DNA of 61,704 nucleotides from Carcharhinus longimanus. Lineage: Eukaryota. The stretch lies in the NCBI GenBank assembly GCA_030264375.1, contig JASCQW010000119.1:6700277-6761980 (forward strand), in the 5' to 3' direction. Position 1 is the stretch's first letter. Each line of letters starts with the position of its first letter. Below, piece by piece: positions 21,001-59,100 of the stretch. Made by a program: the position numbers.

Positions 21001-24000
21001 AGGAACAAAGCCGACCTGCACTTTTCCTATAACTCTTAACGAAACAGATTGACAGAATTAATCAGAAACATTCACCCATGCCAATCATTCATCCATGTTG
21101 TTATCAAACTTTCAACATAGTGCTCCTTTTTTTCAAAACTCGGTCATCCATTGGAAGTATATGGCTTGGCAAGATTCGTCCATATTATTTTGGGACAATG
21201 CTCCAAAAACACATTGCATCCATGCTTGCACTTTTCTTTGAGCTTGGTGCGAAGTGTGATTACTGGCATAGCAATTACGAAGGGTGCAGCAGACATTTAC
21301 TAAAGAGGTTAAAGTGAGGGTCGGAAATCCAGGAATTGAAATATGAAATAATGATTATCCATTGTATTCAGTGAATGAAAATAATGTTTTCTGAAGACAA
21401 ACCATTGCTTTGATATGTTCCGCCAAAATTCTGGTAATGCAGCTTTTACACCCGGCTGTTGTAGGTTCAGAGTATGCATTGGGGAAATATATCTCAGTTT
21501 TACTGAAATAGACAGGCACACCTCGTTTGAAATTCATCTCGTGCGATTGATATTCTTATCAAATTCAACAGGATGAATCATCACTTAAATAATAAAAAAG
21601 TGGCAGATTAGTCATTAAATACTATGCTCCAAAGGAGACTTTCCCCATCACAACCTGAGTCACTTCAACTTGAAATATATTAAATAATGTGCTAAGCATG
21701 ACGAAAACATCATCTCGCTCAATGATTTCTTTTACCCGCATATTTCAGGTCTGCTTTCAGACTGCCAATTTCTGAAATGAAATTTCATGCGTAAAAGTAT
21801 CAGATCGTGAAAATGTATTCCATGTAAACAATTGAGCAATTGGTACAGTTCGTCGCTGTCAAAACAAAGGGATTGTAATTCGCATTCCAATACAACACCA
21901 CCCGGTTGCGTGCATTTGCAATAGCATCAAAAATACGTAATGTTCAGCTAACGCGATGGTTTGCAATTTCCCAGCAAGGAAAAATATCTCCCTCAGTGCA
22001 TTAATTAAAATATTTTCACAACACTGTTTTCGAAACTTAGTGGAAACACGATTTTGGAGGAGACTGTCGGGCCTTTGACGCATGGTTACCAAATGACTTT
22101 ACTGTTCTTTAAATGTGATACTTTATACAATTTATCTGTTAATTAATCAACGAATCAGTGTGGACACAGCAACATATACATTTGTTGACCCTGGTTCTGC
22201 AGTTTGTTTTGAGAGGGTTGCCAAACATATTCATGATTTAAAGCATGACTCTCCATTTTATTTTCAAATACCTGCCAAACATTTTTTGAATGAATCTATA
22301 AGTGTCATCAAAAATCTTCCAGTCAATATATGCTGGAACATGATAAACGCGATATTAATATTAAGTAAATGCCTTCCTCCTATTAGTTTTGAAATTAATA
22401 TCATTATGCATTTGCTAAATATTATTCTCCGAATGGAATGAATAAACATCCGTTTATGCAGCCAAACATGATTGGTGCTGCGCAGCTCTTTTAATTCGCA
22501 GCTTGTTTTTTTTTTAAGATACAAACACAGATATTGGAGTTTCTCCGCCTAATTTGAACTCACAAATCAGTGGTTCAATTCAAATCATTCCCTTGCTGCT
22601 TCTATAATGCATTCTTCATTTTGCATAGAACTAATGAAAAATCAAAACTCACTAAAATCTAAATTGCATATCTTATTATTTTTGGTTGTCTTATTTCTAT
22701 TTCAAATGGTATTGCTATATTGACATTGCACGTAAATACATAAAATAGCATTTATGCAATGGTGGAATAGAATCAGCATGTTATAGTTTTGTACATCGAT
22801 TAATAGAATATTGTTGGCCTTTTGGGCCAACACTGAAATTATCTCATTGATTTTAGTGATTTCATATTTATTCTTGCGTTTATATTTCATCAACACAATT
22901 TCCGTCATTAGTCATGCACATAAGTTCAGCAATTGCACATTTGTGAGTATATGTAACGACAAAAAAGTTCAGGGGCATGCTTCTGAGAACGCATCATAAT
23001 TAATGTATTATTCTTCTACCGAATTACAGTCATATACTTAACTGAATGGCATTGACTGACATGCAAATAAATCGCATCCATCGAGCAGTATATTATCCTG
23101 GAAAATGTAAGCCCTGATAACATACACCAATAAAATACGTAATGCCCTGAAAAGACACTTCATACTTTGCTTACCTGCTAATGACCTAAATTATGGAAAT
23201 TGTGCCTTCATCACCAATATTTGTGGTTGGCACGGTGGCACAGTAGTTGGCAATGCTGCTTCACAGCTCCTGGGTCCTGGGTTTGATTTCCGGCTCGGGT
23301 TACTGTCTGGGTGGAGTTTGCACATTCTCCTCGTGTCTGCGTGGGTTTCCTCTGGGTACTCCAGTTTCCTACCACAGTCCAAAGATGTGCAGTTTGGCTT
23401 GATTGCCCTTGCTAAGAAATTGTTCCTTAGTGCCCAAGGATGTGTAGGTTAGGGGGATTAGTGGGTATAATATGTAGGGACATGATGCTAGGGCCTAGGT
23501 GGGCCCTATTGTTTGTGTTGGGTGCAGACGTGATGGGACGAATGGCCTCTTTCTGCACTGTAGTGTTCTATGGTTCGCAATCTAAATTATGTTCAAGAGT
23601 ATGTTGTTAACCTTATATTTAATAGAGATCCATGAATTTTGTGCGTAAGTGTGAATTACCTTTATCATTTTCAACGAGAGATTTCACTGCGGATAGATAT
23701 AAAGGTTATTAATGTTGGTCATATCCATGCAGCGTTGTTTTTTTTTGCAAAACAGTTCTTTTTCACGACTTGAATACGATTGCTGATAGTTATTTCAATC
23801 AAATAAATCTTATACCAACGTGCAATTGCAACGAAGGATCAAACTACATTATTAGTACAGATCAGGTAAGGAATAACAAACTTGATTGTTAACAAAAGAA
23901 GAAAAAGATAGAAGGGAGAAGAAGAAGAAGAAGAAGAAGAAGAAGAAGAAGAAGAAGAAGAAGAAGAAGACGCTGATAAGGCGAAGAAAACTCAGAAGAA

Positions 24001-56100: not shown

Positions 56101-59100
56101 TTGCATTAAGTTGATCTTTCTCCACACCCTAGCTATGAGTATAACGCTACTTTCTGCATTCTCACGTTTCCTTCTCTATTAACGGTCTGCTTTGTCTGTA
56201 TAACGCTCATTGAACAATACTTTTCACTGTATGTTAATGCATGTGACAATAATAAATCAAATCAAGTCAAATCAAAATCAAAGTTGGTTGGAAGCAACAT
56301 GCATTTGAGGTGCTCTTTGCCGATAATAATCATTCATGCATTGCAGCAGTACAGATTGAACAGAATGGTGCCGATTAAACAATGGGTTATAGAAACAGAT
56401 AACATCACAAACCATAAATCCGTAAGGTATAACCACTTTGTATTCATACGTTCAATATCAATCATTTATTACAGTGACGCGTGCAAGAATCTGTCGTGTA
56501 TCTTCCACGCGAAAGATAATAAATGACAGCTGAAAATGCAAATACTGCCAGTTGTTATTGGGTTCTGCCCATGTAAAACAAAATGAGGGCAAGTTTACAT
56601 CATGTAATACCTTGCAAAATGAATGCTGTTTTTTCTGCCCACCAATATTGATATAAGTAGTGAGTATTCCAACATTTTCATTTCTCATTTTATCTTTAAA
56701 TGATTCAACGTATTTTGCTGGAGGAAATTACCTTCTTCAGTCTTCCTGGGCATCCCGCCGTTATGGCACACACGGATGTTTCATTTTTAGTCCCTGCTGT
56801 GAGCATATCTTATAACGGCGCCATCAAGGCGGCTAAAGTCGTGACGTTGTCATCGAAGTGGATCACGTGATTGAATGGGTTGAACGGCCAAATCAGTGTT
56901 AAATTCCTGAGCTTTTCTTGTGCAACTTCATCAAGAATAATATTTGTTGCCATGATGATCGGACACAGACCACCGGGGACGTGGAGGATAAGGTAGAACA
57001 AAGAACAAAGAACAACACAGCACAGGAAACAGGCCCTTCAGCCCAACAAGCCTGCACCGCCATTTTAACACTGTGAGTGCCCTCTTCTACCTATGACCTT
57101 TGTCCACACCTATTGGACTCCACAATAAAGGAACCATAACCAGATTGAGGGGCAACTAATTTAGGGACAATTTGTTAACACCAATCAGCCTAAGAGAGAA
57201 ATGACTAGTGTGGGTTACAAACTTTTGGCATACACGCATCGATTAATTTGTGGTGGATTTTCTTGAAAGACAGCCTCCTACCTGAGTCAATAATATTTAT
57301 GTTTGCCCGTCACGCCAGACAGAGCACATGTTTATTTATACTGAAAAAATAATCTGTGGCACTTTGTGTGAAATGAATTTCTTCAGTATCACATAGATTT
57401 TTTGGCACAATGATATATCGGTAGCGCATAAAATTTGGTATCCCAAGCAGACAGTCAAAAATGAAGCATGAGTTGTAACTTCTCACCTGTTGGTGGGAAA
57501 TGTGGGCTCTTTTCTGGAAATTAAATTAGAAGCAATGTTTGAGTCAGAATTAGATTTGAAACTCGAATAGATAGTAATCCCTGAAGGATGGATCTCGGTC
57601 TATATTACTCGTCATAAAACCAGTCTAATACACTGTATTTTCACGTTTTCCGAATAGCAATACAGTATCTATTTTTCAGTTAGAAAGTTATCTGGCAACA
57701 TGACTTACTCTCTAGAAACGAACAACTTATTGTAGAATCTGTTACATTATATCCTCTCAATTCATTACGTTAAAGTGGGAGACTATTGAATTTGAATCAC
57801 TTGTTCAAACACGTTTCTAAATGTTTATCCTGAAGCATAACATGACCTTTACATTCAGCGTTAACTGGTCTTTTTATTCGCCGAAAATTCTCATCATGTT
57901 ATATCTTCATTTCTGTTCTGTGACATGCAGGTGTAGACAATCAAGTAAGGTGAACATGAGTAAAGGCACATATTATAGTCAATCTCCATGTCAAAACTTT
58001 AATTGAATACAAACATTCTGAAAGAATGAGAGTTTTAGAGGCTAAGAAGTTTTGGCCTACTCTGTTCTCGAATATTAGCACTGCAAATTGGGTTGCAAAA
58101 TACACCACTTTCATGGATAGCTTGGACCGAGGTTTTAGACTTCAATCATACGCTGATAGCAATAGCACTGCCAACCAAGAACTTCAAAGCGTGCTTTGTC
58201 ATTGTTTACTGAACATTTTGCCAGAAACATTACTTAACTGCTAATGTGCCGGTTACATTGACGTGCGAAAAACGCTGTGCGTTCCATGAAATACATTTGC
58301 TATTTCAACGACTAAAAATGTTGTCAGAACACATAAGGCTCATTTGCGCCACCTCAACGCTTGTCTTACCCGTAGCTAATCTCTTGTTCTTCATTTTCTC
58401 TAAGTCTATAGAAAGAGATATTTAAATTTCTCCATTTTCTTCCCTGATCGCTTTTATTGAAAGCAATTTCAAATGCAATGTGTTCAGCATGTAATCGTGG
58501 CAGTGCACACGAGAATGATGTTATCATGCTTGCTGTATGCCTTAATTAATGAATTTAGAAAGAAAAACAGAAACCATGTTTTGTTGTGTAAGGACACTGG
58601 AGAAACGTTCTGATATCTCTTGAATTTCTTATCCTACGGCCTGAAATTAATCATGGAAAATAGAATGAGACATTTTTTTTCCTGCACATAGTAGGAATTA
58701 TCACCCTGGTGACGTATTAGACGTTCATTCTGATCATTGACTTCAGCATAACTGAACATAAAGTTTACATTCAAAAATCGACAGCGCCATCAGACTGCTT
58801 TGTAATTATGTCCGTGATAAGTTGCAAATGCATATGCTATGTTATTTATTGGCATTGAAATAAATGCATGCTCGTTTAAGAGTCAGTATTTCTTTATGAG
58901 GACAGAAATCTAAATAAAAAAAAACTGTCTTGTCACTGACATACGACCCTGCCTGTGTATGATGCCATGTTTCGAATCAATTGTTCAGTAACAGAGGGTC
59001 GTTCGCAACATTACAAACAATGTCTAAAAATGAAGGCGTGTTTCAAGCACTGGGAACCCAAACAACCTGACATTATAGGAAACAGTATTGATTAGTGGAA

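What the first reader, a model, noticed from the sequence alone, without database searches (positions are those of the whole stretch)
22596..57829. Dead exon copies sit where the 27/36 alternation predicts a missing exon
Seen: VLCKMKNAL*.. (22596-22630; 35 nt, stop, broken donor) and DVQNIEIKSNRL (26493-26530; 34 or 38 nt) fall between short exons where a 36-nt exon is expected. DKHLETCLN (57801-57829; 29 nt) follows a 36-nt exon and extends its heptads. AKYVESFKD (56691-56717; good acceptor, no donor) resembles AQYIERSKD. Inference: either exon birth-and-death inside a living gene (symmetric exons can be lost at no frame cost) or a recently pseudogenised locus.
[Added by the scan's program, not by the reader: the finding's places include an assembly gap (unread letters, written N; its length is only estimated) at 28487 to 28496, 30921 to 31020, 33219 to 33331, 35005 to 35104, 40013 to 40112, 40920 to 41019. 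Whether the letters on both sides are continuous or in frame is not known: test that first.]
Basis: partly seen in the sequence, partly recalled or inferred. Interest (0 to 1): 0.65.

Follow-up and report, generated by a model that had tools for sequence, protein, structure and literature searches.

The report
Mostly chance look-alikes of tiny exons
In the introns of a gene built from very small exons, three of four supposed dead exons look like ordinary chance strings, and the fourth may be a real decayed or rarely used copy of a neighbouring exon.

Summary
All four strings are at the stated coordinates on the minus strand. They lie in introns of a gene made of phase 1-1 micro-exons. I count 13 exons of 27 nt and 4 of 36 nt, against 0 and 1 on the control strand, plus one more 27-nt exon, 45328-45354, that fails my donor matrix.

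Three candidates (22596-22630, 26493-26530, 57801-57829) are no better than chance:
- Their post-acceptor peptides are matched or beaten by 120, 753 and 80 of 3460 control AG sites.
- Their acceptors score below every live exon.
- Near-miss exons are equally common on both strands.

The slot argument also fails. 22596 lies just upstream of an intact 36-nt exon. The live exons 29260 to 18879 already read in one heptad register (top 2.3% of offset combinations). Adding either candidate worsens that register.

The register does call for 12 missing residues between 45447 and 39634, an interval that holds two assembly gaps.

The fourth candidate (56691-56717) is suggestive. Its match to two consecutive live exons was reached by 3 of 200 shuffles. 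Its frame stays open to a weak in-phase donor at 75 nt.

No orthologues or transcripts could be checked, and the gene is unidentified.

The parts
59506..59532 (-). Live 27-nt exon, phase 1-1, (A)QYIERSKD, ends in G
   Evidence: Leave-one-out acceptor 2.8, donor 8.8.
58370..58405 (-). Live 36-nt exon, (D)LEKMKNKRLAT
   Evidence: Leave-one-out acceptor 10.7, donor 9.8.
57801..57829 (-). Candidate c3, 29 nt. DKHLETCLN is read only in phase 0; there is a stop in the gene's phase. Judged a chance string.
   Evidence: Acceptor PWM -3.8, 51st percentile. 80 of 3460 control AG sites score as well. The L4/C7 pattern with a nearby GT occurs 19 times on minus and 24 on plus. Its heptad fit after 58370 is weak (fraction 0.08).
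57487..57513 (-). Probable live 27-nt exon, (E)KSPHFPPT. Proline-rich, so it interrupts the heptads.
   Evidence: Acceptor 6.1, donor 8.1. Among the non-training hits on minus, where no 27-nt hit occurs on plus.
56643..56717 (-). Candidate c4. The frame stays open to an in-phase G|gtgggc donor at 75 nt. Probably a diverged copy of the unit 59506-59532 plus 58370-58405; either a relic or a rarely used exon.
   Evidence: Acceptor 4.8, 94th percentile; donor 3.4, equal to the weakest live donor. Post-acceptor score 24: 0 of 3460 plus sites and 1 of 3244 minus sites (itself) reach it. Two-part score 44: 2 of 300 shuffles and 3 of 200 AG-anchored shuffles. Caveat.
55474..55500 (-). Live 27-nt exon, (D)SSKITDSF
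46512..46547 (-). Live 36-nt exon, (E)RNKLLMRLIDA
45447..45473 (-). Live 27-nt exon, (E)DKLKACQN
45328..45354 (-). Intact 27-nt exon, (E)LKACKTSG, ends in C. It lies 92 nt downstream of 45447-45473 and looks like a tandem duplicate, possibly an alternative exon.
   Evidence: (score 24). Acceptor 10.3, 99.8th percentile. In the LKAC core three of four codons differ, each by a synonymous change (read).
39634..39660 (-). Live 27-nt exon, (E)TDLIKCQL
34486..34521 (-). Live 36-nt exon, (E)NEKMKQELIQS
32259..32285 (-). Doubtful 27-nt exon, (G)VNWSEIFQ
   Evidence: Acceptor 3.7, donor 7.5.
29260..29286 (-). Live 27-nt exon, (D)AKVEDAVS
27436..27462 (-). Live 27-nt exon, (D)PGKIIEEM
26493..26530 (-). 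Candidate c2, 34 or 38 nt, (D)VQNIEIKSNRL followed by a stop. Judged a chance string.
   Evidence: Acceptor 0.7, 79th percentile. 753 of 3460 control sites score as well. A 12-residue offset at this junction is near the worst. Adding it lowers the chain from the top 2.3% to 18.7%.
23660..23686 (-). Live 27-nt exon, (V)KSLVENDK
22596..22630 (-). Candidate c1, 35 nt, with an in-frame stop and no donor. It shares an 11-base A-rich word with 58370-58405. Judged a chance string.
   Evidence: Acceptor -1.7, 65th percentile. 120 of 3460 control sites score as well. The next exon downstream is an intact 36-nt exon. Offset 0 is best at this junction.
21736..21771 (-). Live 36-nt exon, (E)IGSLKADLKYA; the best heptad pattern of all the exons
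19491..19517 (-). Live 27-nt exon, (E)VELRASNA
18879..18905 (-). Weakest listed 27-nt exon, (E)LEKYVKDD
   Evidence: Leave-one-out acceptor 1.3, donor 3.8.
8933..8959 (-). Live 27-nt exon, (A)SKLSHCET
2936..2962 (-). Live 27-nt exon, (E)LQALREKL

Best explanation
The minus strand of the window carries part of a long gene that probably encodes a coiled coil. It is built from symmetric micro-exons of 27 and 36 nt. Each starts with two bases that finish a codon, and all but one end in a G that starts the next codon.

Three of the four 'dead exon copies' (22596-22630, 26493-26530, 57801-57829) are ordinary intronic strings. Each is an AG with some pyrimidines in front, followed by a short open frame. 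Such strings occur by the dozen on either strand of this AT-rich sequence.

The fourth (56691-56717) is probably a real, diverged copy of the exon unit 59506-59532 / 58370-58405, made by local duplication. It lacks a donor at 27 nt. Its frame stays open to a weak in-phase donor at 75 nt, so it is either a decaying relic or a seldom-used alternative exon.

The gene does duplicate exons in place: 45328-45354 sits beside 45447-45473. The missing 36-nt exons that a strict alternation would call for are partly not missing at all, because the heptads run on without them. The one that the heptad register does call for falls in an interval with assembly gaps.

Shown: the strings, the phases, the strand-specific excess of exact exons, and the chance rates. 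Inferred: the coiled-coil nature, the homology of c4, and duplication as its origin.
For: Gene and exon class. With splice matrices built from 15 exons, phase-1 open AG..GT candidates number 21 on minus against 5 on plus. At relaxed cut-offs the 27-nt class is 13 against 0 and the 36-nt class 4 against 1.

Chance level of c1 to c3.
- Control-strand AG sites whose post-acceptor peptide matches a live exon at least as well: 120, 753 and 80 of 3460.
- DNA local alignment scores of 18-22, against a null median of 17 and a 95th percentile of 22 over 2891 windows.
- Acceptor scores of -1.7, 0.7 and -3.8, against a live leave-one-out minimum of 1.3 and median of 6.2.
- Inexact 36-nt near-exons: 34 on minus and 31 on plus.
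- The L4/C7 pattern with a nearby GT: 19 on minus and 24 on plus.

Slots. The chain 29260, 27436, 23660, 21736, 19491, 18879 read as it stands is in the top 2.3% of 16807 offset combinations. Adding 12 residues at each 27-to-27 junction puts it at 69%. At 27436 to 23660 and at 23660 to 21736, offset 0 (or 3) is best and offset 5 is poor under three weightings. Adding c2, c1 or both gives 18.7%, 18.1% and 22.9%. At 45447 to 39634 offset 5 is best under all three weightings, and that interval holds the gaps at 40013-40112 and 40920-41019.

c4. The AG-anchored two-part match to consecutive live exons scores 44 and is reached by 3 of 200 block shuffles over all 16 exon pairs. Unanchored, 2 of 300 reach it. 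Its acceptor is at the 94th percentile. The 75-nt in-phase frame ends in G|gt.
Against: No orthologous locus, transcript or read data could be consulted, so none of c1 to c3 is excluded as an old relic. A decayed exon need not resemble its paralogues, and the live exons barely resemble each other at DNA level (16-26).

c3 follows a 36-nt exon and does fit its heptads better than 57487 does (0.08 against 0.55).

Evidence for c4 is weaker than it looks:
- Its 27-nt part alone scores 24, a value that 20 of 40 shuffled strands reach somewhere.
- The second part is an A-rich word of a kind enriched in the window (11 matches against 5.2 expected).
- That second part also aligns out of frame to 34486-34521.
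- The two-part test was devised after I had seen the string.
- No flanking intron similarity supports a duplication.

The heptad statistic is home-made, rests on 9 to 12 residues per exon, and is inconclusive for the 59506 to 55474 stretch. My exon list may lack exons with weak sites.
Confidence: 0.5

Rival explanations
1. All four strings, c4 included, are chance. The window contains no exon relic at these places.
For: - 20 of 40 shuffled strands hold an AG-anchored peptide match of 24 or more.
- Over 16 exon pairs, the unanchored two-part p-value is about 0.1 (2 of 300 per pair).
- The second half of c4 is A-rich and of low complexity.
- No intron similarity surrounds it.
Against: - The AG-anchored two-part test is reached by only 3 of 200 shuffles, before counting the 94th-percentile acceptor.
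- c4 is the top real post-acceptor match among 6704 AG sites on both strands.
- It has the same first codon class (Ala) and the same phase as the live exon.
Confidence: 0.3
2. One reading: several of the four are decayed exons of a living gene, lost at no frame cost because the exons are symmetric.
For: - The exons are all phase 1-1 and multiples of three.
- Exon duplication occurs here (45328-45354).
- c2 lies in a gap-free interval between two 27-nt exons that holds no intact 36-nt candidate.
- c3 fits the heptads after 58370 (0.08).
Against: - c1 to c3 are at chance level on every test.
- The heptad register does not need c1 or c2 and is worsened by them.
- c1 is followed by an intact 36-nt exon.
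- c4 is of the wrong type for its slot.
Confidence: 0.08
3. c2 or c3 are live exons, and the small length errors are faults of a draft assembly.
For: The scaffold has 11 N gaps in 61.7 kb. c2 is off by two bases and c3 by one base at each end.
Against: - All listed live exons are intact over about 500 bases.
- c3 would need two separate errors within 29 nt.
- Both acceptors are weaker than any live one.
- c2 worsens the heptad chain.
Confidence: 0.04
4. c2, or c4 in its 75-nt form, is a regulated alternative exon. c2 would be a stop-carrying exon that switches the transcript off.
For: c2 has an AG, a 12-codon open frame, then a stop at a usable GT. c4's 75-nt form is intact in phase.
Against: No transcript data exist. 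c2's acceptor is at the 79th percentile of random AG sites. About 30 such near-exons occur per strand.
Confidence: 0.05
5. The whole locus is a recently dead gene.
For: None beyond the four strings themselves.
Against: Exact-length, in-phase, open exons with good sites show a strong strand-specific excess (27-nt 13 against 0; 36-nt 4 against 1). I found no broken member among sites of exon-like strength. This test is partly circular, because I listed open exons only.
Confidence: 0.03

Closest known systems
Tandem exon duplication giving mutually exclusive or alternative exons (criteria in Hatje et al. 2017, PMC5740500; I read passages only)
   Same: 45328-45354 meets the stated criteria. It lies in the intron next to 45447-45473, has a similar sequence, the same reading frame, the same length, no stop, and GT-AG ends. 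c4 in its 75-nt form keeps the frame, has no stop, and is within the 60-nt length tolerance described there.
   Different: - No transcript evidence exists here.
- c4 is not in an intron next to its look-alike; two exons lie between them.
- c1, c2 and c3 fail the frame, stop or length criteria.
Intronic pseudoexons or decoy splice sites, as catalogued for large human disease genes (I saw only the search listing; none of those papers was read)
   Same: c1 to c3 are AG-plus-short-frame strings deep in long introns, and they are as frequent on the control strand as on the gene strand.
   Different: That literature concerns strings activated by mutation. Nothing here shows activation.
Genes built from short symmetric exons in one phase, such as tropoelastin and non-fibrillar collagens, including loss of tropoelastin exons in primates (recalled from memory; not checked in any call)
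   Same: Every exon splits a codon after its first base, that base is G, lengths are multiples of three, and single exons can be gained or lost without a frame cost.
   Different: The peptides here are heptad-like and charged, not Gly-X-Y or Ala/Lys-rich. No membership is claimed, and the gene is unidentified.

Membership tests
Tandemly duplicated exon (criteria of PMC5740500) | Sequence similarity to a live exon above chance | tested here: inconclusive
   c1, c2 and c3 do not meet it (120, 753 and 80 of 3460 control sites; DNA scores within the null). c4 is suggestive (3 of 200; but 20 of 40 for the first part alone). 45328-45354 meets it: score 24, within 120 nt of its partner, and inside strong splice sites.
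Tandemly duplicated exon (criteria of PMC5740500) | Same reading frame with no in-frame stop | tested here: not met
   Not met by c1 (a stop), c2 (a stop before the usable GT) or c3 (a stop in the gene's phase), all. Met by c4 and by 45328-45354.
Tandemly duplicated exon (criteria of PMC5740500) | Similar length in steps of three, with GT-AG ends | tested here: not met
   c1 is 35 nt with no GT; c2 is 34 or 38 nt; c3 is 29 nt. c4 has no GT at 27 nt but one at 75 nt. 45328-45354 is 27 nt with GT-AG ends.
Dead (unitary) exon relic | An intact, conserved counterpart in related species | not testable with these tools
The similarity collections hold phages, plasmids and E. coli.
Dead (unitary) exon relic | It lies where the gene's structure requires an exon | tested here: not met
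   c1 precedes an intact 36-nt exon. At the junctions holding c2 and c1, offset 0 is best and offset 5 poor. Inserting them worsens the chain. c3 and c4 are inconclusive.
Heptad coiled-coil protein | Hydrophobic residues at a/d spacing that continues across exons | tested here: met
   The chain 29260 to 18879 as it stands is in the top 2.3% of 16807 offset combinations. The 59506 to 55474 stretch is weak (12.5%). No fold or family search was possible on 9 to 12 residue exons, and the joined step was left out.
Stop-carrying regulatory (poison) exon | Inclusion in transcripts, and conservation | not testable with these tools
   No expression data and no related genomes were available.

The most novel reading that the evidence does not exclude
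The gene is an undescribed micro-exon coiled-coil gene in which 9- and 12-residue heptad exons are duplicated, fused and lost in place. On this reading 45328-45354 is a newborn duplicate. 56643-56717 is a copy in which a 27-type and a 36-type exon lie fused with no intron between them, which would record an intron loss or a patch copied from spliced RNA inside the gene's own intron.
Probability: 0.1. Interest if true: 0.5.

Novelty: new member of a known kind. Interest (0 to 1): 0.2.

Why it matters
If c4 and 45328-45354 are real, this locus is a compact example of exon turnover in a gene whose symmetric 9- and 12-residue exons can be added or dropped freely. That would matter for how long coiled coils change length.

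The more practical lesson is a caution. In AT-rich introns, an AG followed by a short open frame with a heptad-like look occurs about 30 times per 60 kb on either strand. Such strings cannot be called dead exons without orthologues or transcripts.

The heptad register gives a usable internal check on whether an exon is truly missing.

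Tried and rejected
- DNA local alignment of each candidate and its flanks to every live exon gave scores within the null.
- Self-BLAST of the window and of each candidate with 250-nt flanks, looking for segmental duplication or a transposon origin, found nothing at the candidates. Only a repeat copy lies about 160 nt from c2.
- The 11-base word shared by c1 and 58370-58405 is an A-rich word, with 11 near-matches against 5.2 expected.
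- Neither strand shows an excess of near-miss exons.
- The L4/C7 motif is at chance level.
- Heptad chains for 59506 to 55474, with and without c3, c4 and 57487, were inconclusive.
- A second look-alike at 14767-14799 has no acceptor and the wrong phase, so I dropped it.
- Gene identity. Rfam gave 0 matches and the tRNA scan gave 0.
- Only three single-exon candidates reach the tools' minimum length. 56644-56715 had no Pfam or PDB match, 12784-12873 had no Pfam or Atlas match, and 9884-9955 had no Pfam match.
- The 89-codon open stretch over c4 had no Pfam match, and the Atlas returned only unnamed bacterial clusters, which I treat as noise.
- Three literature searches for a gene with 27/36-nt exons found 0 papers, so I can say only that those word searches found nothing.
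- Pfam on transposon-like ORFs: 0 of 8 matched, and 1 of 10 gave a sub-threshold RVT_1 match.

Full report
WHAT IS IN THE WINDOW

The window is AT-rich (about 31-45% G+C per 2-kb step) and has 11 runs of N. A gene runs along the whole minus strand. Its exons are tiny and uniform: 27 or 36 nt, with the first two bases finishing a codon and the last base starting the next one. That last base is G in 17 of the 18 exons I list.

The exon class is real. A strict scan gave 14 candidates on minus against 3 on plus. I then built splice matrices from 15 exons. Phase-1 open AG..GT candidates numbered 21 on minus against 5 on plus. At relaxed cut-offs the 27-nt class was 13 against 0 and the 36-nt class 4 against 1. 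The training exons are favoured by construction, so leave-one-out scores are given. One further exon, 45328-45354, has a 99.8th-percentile acceptor but fails my donor matrix because it ends in C.

The peptides are charged, with hydrophobic residues at heptad spacing. Three 27-nt exons share L at position 4 and C at position 7.

I do not take the window for human.

THE FOUR CANDIDATES AS STRINGS

- c1, 22596-22630: 35 nt after ...ttttcattag. In the gene's phase it has one stop, and there is no GT at its end.
- c2, 26493-26530: open for 12 codons, then a stop overlapping the only good GT. Both lengths, 34 and 38 nt, break the frame.
- c3, 57801-57829: 29 nt. The quoted peptide is in phase 0. In the gene's phase a stop comes at once.
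- c4, 56691-56717: open in phase 1, with 5 of 9 residues and 17 of 27 bases identical to 59506-59532, and no GT at 27 nt.

ARE THEY MORE THAN CHANCE?

For every AG in the window I scored the in-register peptide against all live exons.

| Candidate | Score | Control-strand (plus) AG sites scoring at least as well |
|---|---|---|
| c1 | 12 | 120 of 3460 |
| c2 | 6 | 753 of 3460 |
| c4 | 24 | 0 of 3460 on plus; 1 of 3244 on minus (itself) |

Other tests agree for c1 to c3:
- DNA local alignments of the candidates with their flanks to live exons scored 18-22. The null over 2891 windows has a median of 17 and a 95th percentile of 22. Live exons score only 16-26 against each other.
- Acceptor scores are -1.7, 0.7 and -3.8 for c1 to c3, which are the 65th, 79th and 51st percentiles of control AG sites. 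c4 scores 4.8, the 94th percentile. The live leave-one-out median is 6.2 and the minimum 1.3.
- Near-miss 36-nt exons (AG, 11 open codons, charged peptide, GT within 3 nt of the expected place) number 34 on minus and 31 on plus. A Markov model gives 43 ± 5 in total, including exact ones.
- The L4/C7 pattern after an AG with a GT nearby occurs 19 times on minus and 24 on plus.
- The 11-base word that c1 shares with 58370-58405 is A-rich, with 11 near-matches against 5.2 expected.

I conclude that c1, c2 and c3 are what this sequence yields by chance.

DO THEY SIT WHERE AN EXON IS MISSING?

The alternation is loose. Each of the four 36-nt exons is flanked by 27-nt exons. There are eight junctions of 27 to 27, and five of them contain N gaps. 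The three gap-free ones (57487 to 55474, 27436 to 23660, 19491 to 18879) hold no intact 36-nt phase-1 candidate even at relaxed cut-offs.

c1 lies between the 27-nt exon 23660-23686 and the intact 36-nt exon 21736-21771, so the alternation predicts nothing there. c4 is a 27-type string where a 36 would be due.

A 27+36 pair encodes 21 residues, which is three heptads. A lone missing 12-residue exon would therefore shift the register by 5. I scored each exon in all seven registers and asked which extra offset each junction prefers.

- The chain 29260, 27436, 23660, 21736, 19491, 18879, read as it stands, is in the top 2.3% of 16807 offset combinations. Adding 12 residues at each 27-to-27 junction puts it at 69%.
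- At 27436 to 23660 (c2's place) and 23660 to 21736 (c1's place), offset 0 (or 3, which is the a/d swap) is best and offset 5 is poor. This holds under three weightings.
- Inserting c2, c1 or both lowers the chain to 18.7%, 18.1% and 22.9%.
- At 45447 to 39634, offset 5 is best under all three weightings. That interval holds the gaps at 40013-40112 and 40920-41019.

The statistic is home-made and each exon is short. It is inconclusive for 59506 to 55474. There c3 does fit the heptads after 58370 better than 57487 does (0.08 against 0.55).

THE GAPS

None touches an exon or a candidate. The nearest inside the finding is 353 nt away. Because every exon is symmetric, nothing hidden in a gap can break the frame, only the heptad register. 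The flanks of the gap at 40920-41019 share the same 12 bases, so those contig ends may overlap. No other gap shows this. I filled none.

c4 IN DETAIL

Read on in frame, c4 continues with KMRNEN, which resembles the core of the next live exon, 58370-58405.

- The two-part score is 44 (24 + 20). It exceeds all 40 Markov strands (maximum 40).
- It is reached by 2 of 300 composition-preserving block shuffles.
- It is the best among 16 consecutive exon pairs.
- In an AG-anchored test over all pairs it is reached by 3 of 200 shuffles.
- The frame stays open to G|gtgggc at 75 nt (56643-56717). That donor scores 3.4, equal to the weakest live donor.

Evidence against c4 being real:
- The first part alone is not rare. 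20 of 40 shuffled strands reach 24 somewhere.
- The second part is of low complexity and aligns out of frame to 34486-34521.
- No intron similarity surrounds it.
- I devised the two-part test after seeing the string.

I put the chance that c4 is a true relative at about 0.6. Whether it is dead or used cannot be told from sequence.

EXON DUPLICATION ELSEWHERE

45328-45354 is an intact 27-nt exon 92 nt downstream of 45447-45473. Its acceptor is at the 99.8th percentile and its donor is gtgagt. It shares an LKAC core with its neighbour, shifted by two codons, and three of the four core codons differ by synonymous changes. It meets the published criteria for a tandem-duplicate alternative exon (passages of PMC5740500).

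WHAT STAYED UNCHECKED

Only three single candidates reach the tools' minimum length. 56644-56715 gave no Pfam or PDB match, 12784-12873 gave no Pfam or Atlas match, and 9884-9955 gave no Pfam match.

The remaining collections hold no vertebrate genomes. No orthologous locus, dN/dS estimate or expression check was possible. Supplements of papers were not consulted.

VERDICT

The finding is mostly ordinary.

Noticed in passing
window 45328-45354 (minus): An intact 27-nt phase-1 exon lies 92 nt downstream of exon 45447-45473. It shares an LKAC core in which three of the four codons differ by synonymous changes, and it ends in C rather than G. It looks like a tandem exon duplicate, possibly an alternative exon.
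   Followed up: partly
window 46512-46547 (minus): A fourth 36-nt exon, (E)RNKLLMRLIDA, with good splice sites lies directly upstream of the 27-nt exon 45447-45473.
   Followed up: yes
window 39661-45327: The heptad register of the flanking exons calls for about 12 extra residues here under all three weightings. The interval contains two N gaps and a 24-nt candidate at 40523-40546.
   Followed up: partly
window 40920-41019 (N gap): The 12 bases before the gap are identical to the 12 bases after it, as if the two contig ends overlap. No other gap shows this.
   Followed up: partly
window 53203-53521 and 54084-54407: Two copies of a repeat, 83% alike, lie in inverted orientation on either side of the 492-N gap.
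   Followed up: no
window 55872-56271 ~ 43364-43744; 26011-26333 ~ 23230-23571 (also 20375-20473 and 39303-39381): Two families of interspersed repeats, 70-78% alike, lie in the introns. One copy ends about 160 nt from c2 and another 89 nt from exon 23660-23686.
   Followed up: partly
window about 47500-52300, also 10882-11154 and 35105-35413: Open stretches that recall LINE reverse-transcriptase text (recalled motifs). Only 48048-48392 gave a sub-threshold RVT_1 match (E 0.01, 16 bits against a cut-off of 29.6). GC skew swings strongly here. I did not analyse this further.
   Followed up: partly
window 57487-57513 (minus): A 27-nt exon with strong splice sites encodes a proline-rich peptide, (E)KSPHFPPT, which would interrupt the coiled coil.
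   Followed up: partly
window 12783-12875 (minus): A 93-nt phase 1-1 open frame with strong splice scores (10.5 and 8.2), not heptad-like. It may be a different kind of exon of the same gene. It has no Pfam or Atlas match.
   Followed up: partly
window 45447-45473 and 19491-19517 (minus): Both exons have a second AG three bases inside the exon (cag then aag), so 24-nt variants are possible through tandem acceptors.
   Followed up: no
window 23896-23970; 25460-25484; 32323-32376: Simple repeats lie in the introns: (AAG)24 about 210 nt upstream, in gene sense, of exon 23660-23686; a run of 25 C; and (TTA)18 just upstream of the doubtful exon 32259-32285.
   Followed up: no
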